The position numbers and the translations under genes were made by a program. This document shows, in pieces, positions 2,616 through 5,600 of a stretch of DNA of 64,000 bases. Origin of the DNA: Massalongia carnosa (Eukaryota); the NCBI GenBank assembly GCA_965645245.1, contig OZ287083.1, forward strand, positions 1,488,001 to 1,552,000, in the 5' to 3' direction. Numbering within the stretch: position 1 is the first letter of the stretch; each line of letters begins with the position of its first letter. Below the pieces are notes generated by a model. It worked only from the letters and a program-made list of their open reading frames with translations, made no database searches and was not told the origin of the DNA.

Positions 2616-5600
2616 ATGGCCTCGTCGTTACATGCTCGTGGTCACATGAACGGGAATTTTAACGCCCCCAGCTCACAGCCCTATATCCCCTCTCGGTCAA
2701 ACCTCGATGGGGGGGCACTGGGCGTGCTCTCACCTCCGATGCCTCCTACTACTCCACAGCCTCCTCAGAACGGATTTCCTCAGCGGGATGATAATATCAT
2801 GAACCGGAGGGCAGATATGAACAGCTCGCTTTACCAGATCTGTTTAAGCCTAAGGATACGGTTAGCCGAAGTTCCTGGATTTTCTCACCATATAGCGGAA
2901 ATGGAGGAGGAGGAAGCAGATGTGGAAGACTCGACAGATCCAGTTACATCAATGTGGAACTGTCTGCGACGTGGCTATCCCTTGATGACAATCTACAACG
3001 CTTTACAGCCAGCCACACCCTTGAAGGTTGATCCATCAAGGATTGGAGAAGCGAAGATTGGCAAAGCAGCGACTTTCAAGTTTTTGCATGCTTGCCTAAC
3101 TGAACTAAGGTTTCCAGCGAATGAGTGTTTCTTAATCACCGATTTGTATGGTGGAGATACTACCGGTTTTGTTAAAGTAGGCTGCATCCCCCTCCACCGA
3201 CTGTCGGAGAACATTGTGTGTTGCTTCCAAATGAAGTCTGCACAGCGATTCAGAAAAGAATCAGAGTTCCAACAGTAGGCTTACTCTGCTTTTAGGTAAC
3301 CAAAGTCGTTAATCGAGTCTTGGACCTCTTGAGCCAAAGAGGACTTCTCCTTCACACCGAGCACAAGCCTACAAACGGAGTAGAGACTCACAAACCCCAA
3401 AATCTTACATATAGGCAGAATGTCGTCCAGGAAATCGTCATGACAGAGCGCGATTATGTTCAACATCTTGAGACGTTGCAGCAATTTAAAAATGAAATAG
3501 AGGAGTGTGGAGCCATTGCAGGTGATGCAGTGCACGATATATTTCTGAACCTTAACGCTTTGTTGGACTTTCAACGACGTTTCCTGATTCGCATTGAACA
3601 GCAAAACTCATTACCGGAATCCCAACAAAACTGGGGTCAACTGTTCATCCAATACAAGGAGTCTTTTCGAGTTTATGAGCCATTTATAGCAAATCAGACA
3701 CGGTGTAACGAAGCAGTTATGAAAGAATGGGATAAACTCAAGGCTGCTCCTTTGTCACCAGCCTTAAATGGTCTTTTAAATACCCAACATATACTAGCTG
3801 GATTTCTGTTAAAACCGTTTCAGCGACTAACCAGGTACCCAATGCTGCTAAAGGTAAGTTTTGAGAAGTACTTGACAAATATAACACTAACACTCTCATA
3901 GGACTTACGTGTCAAAGGCGGCTTGGATGAAGAAAGAAAGGCTGACCTAGAGGAAGGAGAACGCGCAGCTGGGTCGATTCTAGATCGCGCAAACGAGGCT
4001 CTAGGCAAGGAACATCGGCTCGCGGCTATGACCGAACTTCAAGGCCTGGTAGAGGACTGGAAGGGTCATAAGATGGATCATTTCGGAGACCTTCTGCTCT
4101 ACGGCAGTTTCACAGTCTTAAAAGGAGAAGGCGCCAAAGAGGTTCCACGAGAGGTTCGTAACATTTTTGATTCTCTAAATCCCAAATGCCGTGCTATCGT
4201 TCGCCGCGCATGTCAACAAGTTCCCAGCTTGCGCATCCCGCGTTCTTGCGAAGAGGAGCCCATCAGTGCTTCTGTACTGAGCCCTGGGGCCACTACACCA
4301 ACAACTGCATCAAGCTTGAGCAGATTTCAAAGCGCTCTGGAAGGTGTACCTGAAGAGGCTGCCGAAGAAGCCGATGAAGAGCCCATGGCTGCGTCAAAGG
4401 GAACGCTAAAGGTCAACGCTCAGGCGGATCTCTCCCCAAAGCTTAAGGTCCAGCCAATATGTGGCTCAAAGTTGGTTCGCAAGAAACCCCCTCTATCCAT
4501 ATTTATCCCGACGAAGAAGCTCACATCATTTCATTACTCTGGCCCCTCTCGGACTCCTAGTACACCTACATTCTTCTCCAAGCCAGAAAGCGCACCTCAG
4601 CTTTCTCATAAAACCTTCAAAGGCTACAGTGGGAAACAAAAGGCCGAGTCACCCACTCTTAGCCGAATAGGTAGAGGAAAAGCAGCAGGAGCCCTGAGGC
4701 GATTAGGCATCCATTTCAATTATAGGATCTTCAAGAATGGAAAGGTCCTTCAAGTTTTGAGGAAGCCAGAATGTGCCGATGATCCCTACAACCTCCTTAA
4801 TCTTTTCAATGGTCCTTTCTTCTCTTCTTTACCCTTGCTGTTTTCGGATATTATGCTGTCTCGGAGCTCGACCCATAGTAGAGGCTATGGTAGCCGAGCC
4901 GTGAAGGGCCAGAAACAACGGAAGCAGCATGTGAAAGTCAGAGCTTTGAAATTGGAGAGAGAACTAGCTAACGAGTCGGGGTTCGACCTCCCTGTGCGTG
5001 TACAGTACAAGGTCTACCTTTTCGAACGTATTTTGCTTTGCTGCAAAGAAATCAACCCAAACAAACCCAAGAATAAAATGCTCGGAACCAACAAACCTCT
5101 CATCGATAAAAAAGGGAAACCTCGGCTTCAGCTCAGAGGCAGGATTTTCATGCAGAACGTTACAGACGTCGTGTCCCTGGTAAAAGCAGGTATGTTCTAA
5201 CTTCATGCTTGCGCGTTATGACTCGTCCATATCGCTTACTATTGTTAATGCGGACTCAGATAAGCCTTTGTATACCATACAAATTTTCTGGAAAGGTGAT
5301 CCTGGGGTGGAGAACTTTGTCATCCGGTTCACCACGGAAGACATGATGAACAAATGGCGGGACCAGGTAACGATGCAGAAGCGGATTCTTTGCGAGTCCG
5401 CACGGAGCTCGGGGCAGCCCGGCACATCAGAGACTGAATTTACGTCCATGAAGAACCAGGCCTCCCTTGAAAACCCTTATCTCCAGGATGATGATCTCGA
5501 GGAAGACGATAGTCAGGGAAGTACTTTGGTTGACGGACAATCTAACTTTGCGGCAAGCCGGAATGCGTCTAATAGTAGCTTACGGGCTGCGGCGACTTTA

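What the first reader, a model, noticed from the sequence alone, without database searches (positions are those of the whole stretch)
4154..5005. 852-nt stop-free, in-frame intron (exitron-like) inside the Cdc24 PH domain
Seen in sequence: the segment has a GTTCGT donor (4154), GCTAAC branch site (4967-4972) and CAG acceptor (5005). Removing it gives the canonical PH junction EVPRE|YKVYLFERILL. Yet it is exactly 284 codons long with no in-frame stop, whereas the other CDC24 introns are 48-119 nt and contain stops. Retention would insert a basic, Ser/Pro-rich 284-aa segment into a PH loop. Inference: this is a regulated two-isoform switch that alters membrane or nuclear targeting of the polarity GEF.
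Basis: partly seen in the sequence, partly recalled or inferred. Interest (0 to 1): 0.72.

Follow-up and report, generated by a model that had tools for sequence, protein, structure and literature searches.

The report
Protein-coding intron in fungal CDC24
An 852-base intron in the cell-polarity gene CDC24 of a lichen-type fungus is cut out of the usual message, yet several fungal classes have kept it readable as protein, so the gene can probably also make a longer, so far unseen form of this central growth regulator.

Summary
Observation confirmed. Intron 3 of CDC24 (4154-5005) is 852 nt, phase 0, GTTCGT..GCTAAC..CAG, with 0 in-frame stops where about 12 are expected.

It is not a one-off. 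144 distinct orthologous inserts (101-524 aa, 42 groups below 50% identity) sit at the same codon, all ending in Q (CAG). They share peptide motifs that splice signals do not explain. The 3' motif recurs in Geoglossum, Trizodia, Pycnora and in Leotiomycete- and Eurotiomycete-like proteins.

In DNA fetched by flanking motifs, 4 of 7 lichen-type lineages keep a 726-909-nt open intron. The other three have lost the frame; the two longer of these (400-451 nt) have consensus donors. Near-identical relatives (Lobaria, Letharia) yield fully spliced transcript-like contigs. A model of the retained form folds the PH domain, with the insert looped out between strands 1 and 2.

Best reading (0.7): a dual-coding, exitron-like intron giving a major 1008-aa and a minor or conditional 1292-aa Cdc24. 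No retained mRNA, regulation or peptide was seen. Membrane retuning is inferred; nuclear targeting is unsupported. Not found in print in nine searches; this scan noted it once before in another genome.

The parts
2571..3176 (+). CDC24 exon 1 (probable start ATG 2571; calponin-homology domain)
   Evidence: Pfam CDC24 PF06395 E 1e-29; the N-terminus MLAT.. matches relatives P0020, P0024, P0025
3177..3295 (+). intron 1, 119 nt, ordinary (frameshifting, stop-containing)
3296..3853 (+). exon 2, DH/RhoGEF domain
   Evidence: Pfam PF00621 E 7e-26
3854..3901 (+). intron 2, 48 nt; its TAG acceptor is the in-frame stop
3902..4153 (+). exon 3: end of DH, PH strand 1 and the strand 1-2 loop, ending KEVPRE
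   Evidence: alignment of relative P0020 to P-Rex1; model of orthologue P0013
4154..5005 (+). intron 3: 852-nt phase-0 stop-free dual-coding intron (284 aa if retained)
   Evidence: a profile of 41 other inserts scores it 126.9 bits, best of 300 shuffles 11.8
4154..4159 (+). non-consensus 5' splice site GTTCGT (codes VR)
   Evidence: open orthologues GTCGGT/GTTCGT/GTATGT; decayed lichen-type orthologues GTAAGT/GTGAGT/GTTAGT
4154..4207 (+). conserved N-anchor peptide VRNIFDSLNPKCRAIVRR (consensus VxxIFDSLxPxxR), predicted helical at low confidence
   Evidence: pattern in 21 of 42 groups against 0.12 in shuffles; synonymous codon variation at the S and L codons; models
4337..4357 (+). conserved internal motif LEGVPEE
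   Evidence: [LV]xx[VIFL]PE in 20 of 42 groups against 1.7 in shuffles
4805..4819 (+). conserved FNGPF motif
   Evidence: FNG in 22 of 42 groups against 0.7 in shuffles; synonymous codons among the window, L023 and L036
4952..5005 (+). conserved C-anchor LERELANESGFDLPVRVQ, overlapping the branch site and acceptor
   Evidence: E at -17 in 27, P at -5 in 31, R at -3 in 27 and Q at -1 in 42 of 42 groups; G at -9 and P at -5 each in 13 of 17 distant rows picked by eye
4967..4972 (+). branch site GCTAAC (codes AN), 39-34 nt before the 3' end
   Evidence: same position in the window and in 3 of the 4 other open lineages; 14-27 nt in most short orthologous introns
5006..5189 (+). exon 4, PH strands 2-4
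   Evidence: Pfam PH_10 PF15411 positions 23-84, E 1e-17
5190..5259 (+). intron 4, 70 nt, in-frame TAA at 5198-5200
5260..6686 (+). exon 5: end of PH, low-complexity linker, PB1 domain, stop
   Evidence: Pfam PH_10 and PB1 hits

Best explanation
Intron 3 is a dual-coding, exitron-like intron under two constraints at once. Shown by sequence and comparison: it keeps working splice signals, and it keeps an open frame with conserved peptide anchors at both ends and two internal motifs. Inferred: the usual mRNA is spliced and gives the canonical 1008-aa CH-DH-PH-PB1 Cdc24. A weak donor and a distant branch site let part of the transcripts, perhaps at one stage or condition, keep the intron. These carry no premature stop and are translated to a 1292-aa form. 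In that form a mostly disordered, net-basic, S/T-P-bearing loop of variable length is hung by two short helices from the strand 1-2 loop of the PH domain, which still folds. The likeliest effect (about 0.45 given translation) is a change in how strongly, or under which phosphorylation state, the GEF binds anionic membrane or a partner at the polarity site. The DH catalytic domain and the PB1 domain are left intact. The long form is dispensable in many lineages, which have lost it independently.
For: Zero stops in frame against about 12 expected. 144 distinct inserts at the same junction, 142 starting with V (GTN) and 144 ending with Q (CAG). Motifs far above shuffles in 42 groups below 50% identity, and a profile built without the window scores the window's insert 126.9 bits. 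Unbiased DNA: 15 of 24 loci with introns of 300 nt or more are 3n and stop-free, from four lineages whose flanks show dS above 1 or saturated. A 9-nt in-frame indel segregates within one lineage (762/753 nt). Natural control: where the frame is lost the intron is shorter (89-451 nt), non-3n, has 1-6 stops, and the two longer ones have consensus donors. G at -9 and P at -5, between branch site and AG, recur in distant classes. Seven fully spliced full-length proteins lie on 4.0-5.9-kb Logan-only contigs; P0020 is 96-99% identical to Lobaria immixta P0190 outside the insert, and P0026 is 98-99% identical to Letharia. The model of orthologue P0013 folds the PH strands at pLDDT about 80-95 around the insert. 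[ST]P averages 8.95 per insert against 4.99 shuffled, and net charge is positive in 35 of 42.
Against: No retained transcript was found. None of the insert-bearing proteins without a named annotation combined the insert with a spliced neighbouring junction, and a search aimed at full-length retained forms gave only 5 genomic or annotated hits. The frame is lost in 3 of 7 lichen-type DNA lineages. Many 50%-representatives stop 25-94 aa after the donor, though some may be contig ends. dN/dS is only about 0.66 for L021-L065 against 0.02 in the flanks, and a protein-guided alignment biases this downward. Within-species changes are few and not clearly synonymous (for example 5 non-synonymous to 1 synonymous). 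TTTGAT near the donor is nearly invariant at third positions, which could be an RNA signal. The window's own insert has no full CDK site, and its SP/TP count (6) is not above shuffles (p 0.16). The protein sets are selected for open frames.
Confidence: 0.7

Rival explanations
1. Only parts of the intron are translated, through alternative donors or acceptors, intronic polyadenylation (a CH-DH protein with a new tail) or an internal start (a PH-PB1 protein with a new head). Full retention is not the selected product.
For: Conservation is concentrated at the two ends; the middle varies from about 90 to 630 aa. A Trichophyton rubrum annotation extends exon 3 by 402 bp that the cDNA lacks (bioRxiv 10.1101/2024.03.04.583433).
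Against: These routes do not need one unbroken frame from donor to acceptor, yet all four open DNA lineages and the window have it. No second branch site and no consensus donor were found inside the window's intron, which has only two in-frame ATGs.
Confidence: 0.12
2. Vestige: the long form was functional in ancestors, but here the frame survives by inertia or by weak selection and is on its way to decay.
For: Repeated losses among relatives; high dN in the insert; only spliced transcript-like contigs seen.
Against: The window keeps both anchors, the two main internal motifs and 0 stops, while being only about 53% identical to Lobaria over this ORF. Stop-less 3n introns are reported as counter-selected (PMC2911113 passages).
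Confidence: 0.09
3. In this species the segment is a constitutive exon part and is never spliced; the splice-like signals are relics.
For: No RNA from this organism shows the junction. Several public annotations model the insert as exon.
Against: GT, branch site and CAG are intact and conserved. The nearest relative yields the exact spliced junction. Lasallia pustulata is annotated both ways.
Confidence: 0.05
4. Chance, or an RNA-level element (structured RNA, small RNA host) that only looks like an ORF.
For: TTTGAT near the donor is nearly invariant; one of 7 introns (L023) shows strong 5'-3' end pairing.
Against: P about 1e-5 per intron, repeated in five lineages. No Rfam match in the intron. 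End pairing is no better than shuffles in 6 of 7, the window included. The motifs vary synonymously.
Confidence: 0.04

Closest known systems
Exitrons (exonic introns; Marquez et al. 2015, PMC4484396; abstract and two Results sections read)
   Same: Spliceable segment that carries no stop when kept; length a multiple of three; weak splice site; longer than ordinary introns; splicing gives an internally deleted protein.
   Different: There the unspliced form is the major isoform and orthologous regions are almost always coding exons; described in plants and human. Here only spliced transcript-like contigs were seen, the orthologous position is a short ordinary intron or absent in many fungi, and the trait is shared across classes with repeated loss.
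Canonical fungal Cdc24/Scd1 (CH-DH-PH-PB1 GEF for Cdc42/Rac; PMC3210136 and PMC4010548, passages)
   Same: The spliced product has all four Pfam domains.
   Different: The retained form adds 284 aa in the PH strand 1-2 loop. The passages searched mention no such isoform.
Trichophyton rubrum Cdc24 annotation XP_003232406 against cDNA MW699015 (bioRxiv 10.1101/2024.03.04.583433, one section read)
   Same: An extra 402 bp (134 codons) at the end of exon 3 is present in the gene model and absent from the cDNA.
   Different: The authors call it a splice-site misprediction. That it is this same intron is my inference; their supplementary figure could not be seen.
Functional intron retention in fungal signalling genes (MoPTEN PMC8322540; T. 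rubrum STE20/PAKA PMC6274995; search listings only)
   Same: Retention alters a signalling protein in a filamentous ascomycete.
   Different: By their listings these are single-species cases. I did not read them and cannot say whether a conserved in-frame insert of this size is involved.

Membership tests
Exitron (Marquez 2015) | No stop codon when unspliced; continuous with flanking coding sequence | tested here: met
Exitron (Marquez 2015) | Core splice signals present, weaker than in constitutive introns | tested here: met
   GT/branch/AG present; non-consensus donor and distant branch compared with decayed and short orthologues; no splice-strength score was computed
Exitron (Marquez 2015) | Spliced junction observed in transcripts | tested here: inconclusive
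   No RNA run for this organism. Spliced full-length proteins on short Logan contigs of close relatives; their RNA origin is inferred
Exitron (Marquez 2015) | Unspliced form present in mature mRNA and usually the major isoform | tested here: inconclusive
   7 transcript-like spliced proteins, 0 retained; assemblies drop minor isoforms, so this shows no absence
Exitron (Marquez 2015) | Coding-type selection on the segment | tested here: met
   Frame and motifs conserved; but dN/dS about 0.66 and no clear third-position excess in the one mid-distance pair (104/85/98)
Exitron (Marquez 2015) | Origin from ancestral coding exon (true of most, not of all, exitrons) | tested here: inconclusive
   The orthologous site is an intron under 300 nt in 33 of 57 intron-bearing loci and has no intron in 20 of 79 loci; the coding form also occurs in several classes; polarity was not tested with a rooted tree
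Exitron (Marquez 2015) | Both isoforms translated; splicing regulated by tissue or stress | not testable with these tools
   needs RNA-seq, ribosome profiling or proteomics
Fungal Cdc24 | CH-DH-PH-PB1 architecture | tested here: met

The most novel reading that the evidence does not exclude
The common ancestor of several Pezizomycotina classes already had a translated CDC24 intron that encodes a stage-specific long isoform of the master polarity GEF. Its helical anchors plug a phospho-regulated basic loop onto the lipid-binding face of the PH domain. It was kept in many lichen-formers and their relatives, lost repeatedly elsewhere, and overlooked because annotators treat it as either a plain exon or a misprediction.
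Probability: 0.35. Interest if true: 0.8.

Novelty: new variant of a known kind. Interest (0 to 1): 0.6.

Why it matters
Conserved, protein-diversifying alternative splicing is thought to be scarce in fungi (own knowledge), and stop-less 3n introns are reported as counter-selected. A 0.7-0.9-kb intron held open across fungal classes in a polarity regulator reported as probably essential in Botrytis would be an unusually deep fungal case. It gives a directly testable handle on how filamentous and lichen-forming fungi retune Cdc42/Rac activation between growth forms. It also explains why CDC24 gene models of these fungi disagree by 200-400 aa.

Tried and rejected
No RNA holder listed for this gene. 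The four runs laid were contigs with no joints and only one differing letter: no evidence on splicing or expression, and no divergence for dN/dS. The genome search holds no relatives; the insert has one match in the own genome, itself. No Pfam family in the insert, no usable ESM Atlas hit, and no Rfam hit in the intron (one weak match elsewhere, E 0.6). 5'-3' end pairing rejected in 6 of 7 introns. NLS patterns absent from the window's insert. My impression that the decayed introns L033/L034 still show peptide homology was not confirmed: the profile gave at most 2.9 bits, within shuffles, and tblastn gave only short weak hits. The 774-nt intron of L076/78/79 has 9 stops and no profile match. 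The first fold (window ORF alone, PH incomplete) was poor (pLDDT 53, pTM 0.30) and is used only for helix hints. The fold search of the second model matched DH/PH and PB1 structures. Codon-usage test: the reading frame scored above the other two frames but not above the best of 300 shuffles. The careful tree did not finish; both trees are quick trees on 126-135 columns with many open forks. The journal version of the lipid-avidity paper was not held; passages of its preprint were read. No complex prediction was run.

Full report
OBSERVATION. The gene at 2571-6686 (+) is CDC24: Pfam finds CDC24 calponin, RhoGEF, PH_10 and PB1 in its exons. Intron 3 runs 4154-5005, is 852 nt, lies between codons, and has GTTCGT, GCTAAC (4967-4972) and CAG. 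It has no stop in the reading frame, against 12 and 16 in the other + frames. Dinucleotide shuffles give 12.0 on average and 0 of 5000 are stop-free. Spliced and retained products are 1008 and 1292 aa from the ATG at 2571. Retaining any other intron truncates the protein. The nearest named relative is Lobaria immixta (84% and 70% identity over the two halves of the spliced protein), so the window is probably from a related lichen-forming fungus (inference).

THE FRAME IS CONSERVED. Two protein searches (34 hits, and 120 listed of 178) and cluster members gave 190 proteins including the window's ORF. Of these, 151 had an insert at this junction, 22 had the spliced junction and 17 lacked an anchor under the patterns used. 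The 144 distinct inserts are 101-524 aa (median 296; a few lengths are inflated by junction mis-calls). 142 begin with V and all 144 end with Q, as GTN and CAG dictate. Named carriers include Letharia, Psora, Dirinaria, Lasallia, Hypocenomyce, Blastenia, cf. Caloplaca, Villophora, Lobaria, Sarea, Pycnora, Geoglossum and Trizodia.

MOTIFS. In 42 groups below 50% identity, motifs that no splice signal requires stand far above shuffles: N-anchor 21 of 42 against 0.12, FNG 22 against 0.7, [LV]xx[VIFL]PE 20 against 1.7, P at -5 in 31, R at -3 in 27. A profile of the 41 other groups scores the window's insert 126.9 bits; its other frames and 300 shuffles reach at most 11.8. A profile search of representatives reached more distant proteins. 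In a quick tree some group with Talaromyces (SH-aLRT 99) and others with Sclerotinia and Rutstroemia (96). In 17 such non-Lecanoromycete rows, which I picked by eye for having a long open segment, A-13 occurs in 15, N/D-12 in 15, G-9 in 13 and P-5 in 13. These protein sets are biased towards open frames.

UNBIASED DNA. Loci were fetched by conserved flanking peptides only (79 loci, the best 80 of 281 confirmed stretches). 57 have an intron at this site, 20 have none (some may be transcripts) and 2 were unresolved. 33 introns are under 300 nt; 7 of these are 3n and stop-free, which short introns can be by chance. Of 24 loci with 300 nt or more, 15 are 3n and stop-free. They represent four lineages (726, 753/762, 897 and 909 nt), one with a 9-nt in-frame indel. 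Six loci (two related lineages, 400 and 451 nt) are non-3n with 3-6 stops, and three Eurotiomycete-like loci (774 nt) have 9 stops. Counting the 89-nt case, 4 of 7 lichen-type lineages are open and 3 are not.

SPLICE SIGNALS AND RATES. Open introns have non-consensus donors and, in 4 of 5 counting the window, a branch site fixed 39-34 nt from the end. The decayed 400-451-nt introns have GTAAGT or GTGAGT. For L021-L065 the insert has dN 0.53 and dS 0.80, the flanks 0.027 and 1.16. Other between-lineage pairs are saturated, and within-lineage differences are too few and not clearly synonymous. Selection therefore holds the frame and short anchors, not most residues.

IT IS ALSO SPLICED. Seven full-length proteins with every junction spliced lie on Logan-only contigs of 4.0-5.9 kb (P0020, P0025, P0026, P0035, P0037-39). 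P0020 is 96-99% identical to the Lobaria immixta model that carries a 279-aa insert, and P0026 is 98-99% identical to Letharia. That these contigs are mRNA is inferred, not on record. One lineage (P0019, P0021, P0175 and kin) lacks introns 2-4 even on long contigs, so intron loss can mimic splicing; but Lobaria and Letharia genomic contigs do hold the intron. Lasallia pustulata is annotated both ways (1035 and 1433 aa). In T. rubrum the cloned cDNA lacks 402 bp that the gene model adds to exon 3, which the authors call a misprediction (10.1101/2024.03.04.583433, section read; supplement not seen).

NO RETAINED mRNA SEEN. No retained mRNA was found. No RNA run is listed for this organism, which is no evidence either way.

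STRUCTURE AND LIKELY MECHANISM. Alignment of P0020 to P-Rex1 puts the junction at the start of PH strand 2. A model of the retained orthologue P0013 (126 sequences, spliced forms included, which may guide the fold) builds the PH strands and closing helix at pLDDT about 80-95. The insert is looped out after strand 1, with helices at its N-anchor (pLDDT about 50-60) and C-anchor (about 69) and the rest mostly below 50. Foldseek matches DH/PH and PB1 structures. In yeast the Cdc24 PH domain binds anionic lipids weakly, through a cationic residue in strand 2, and works by avidity with Bem1 (10.1101/303024, passages). That the strand 1-2 loop is the usual lipid-binding loop of PH domains is own knowledge. 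Inserts are net basic in 35 of 42 groups and enriched in [ST]P (8.95 against 4.99) and [ST]Px[KR] (1.64 against 0.72). SP/TP enrichment holds against nucleotide shuffles in 3 of 5 introns, but not in the window. I therefore favour a long isoform with altered, phosphorylation-sensitive membrane or partner binding. This step is inference. Nuclear targeting is not supported.

COMPARISON WITH WHAT IS KNOWN. It works like an exitron (PMC4484396; abstract and two sections read): stop-free, 3n, weakly spliced. It is not shown to be a member. The retained transcript is unobserved, the spliced form looks dominant, and orthologues elsewhere are ordinary introns. Stop-less 3n introns are reported as counter-selected (PMC2911113, passages). 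Nine literature searches listed no paper on a CDC24 retained-intron isoform. Passage searches of the Neurospora, Botrytis and Histoplasma papers found none. Subscription journals and supplements were not covered.

VERDICT. Real, conserved and probably functional dual-coding intron. A new variant of a known kind, with the decisive RNA and protein evidence still missing. Confidence in a translated long isoform 0.7; interest 0.6.

Noticed in passing
window 2571-2615: An in-frame ATG 15 codons upstream of the MASSL start matches the N-termini of related Cdc24 proteins and is the probable start.
   Followed up: yes
window 3854-3901: Intron 2 is 3n (48 nt) and its only in-frame stop is the TAG acceptor itself.
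   Followed up: partly
P0001-P0014 and others, intron 4 site (window 5190-5259): In many relatives the short intron 4 also reads through in frame (16-30 extra aa, no conserved sequence seen); these were selected by a length filter, so this may be chance.
   Followed up: no
P0019, P0021, P0175, P0179, P0181, P0200-P0203: Lecanoromycete-like CDC24 copies with introns 2-4 absent on contigs up to 236 kb, suggesting precise intron loss in that lineage.
   Followed up: partly
L076/L078/L079 intron, 774 nt: A Eurotiomycete-like CDC24 has a long 3n intron at the same site with 9 in-frame stops and no profile match; possibly an old decayed copy.
   Followed up: partly
P0131: A genomic-type insert of only 105 aa that keeps both end anchors and lacks the middle, pointing to the anchors as the constrained parts.
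   Followed up: partly
window 1-1609 (-), 7440-8422 (+), 9343-10590 (-): Neighbours look by eye like an F-box/WD40 gene, a GINS Psf3-like gene and a cytochrome P450; labels from recall, not tested.
   Followed up: no
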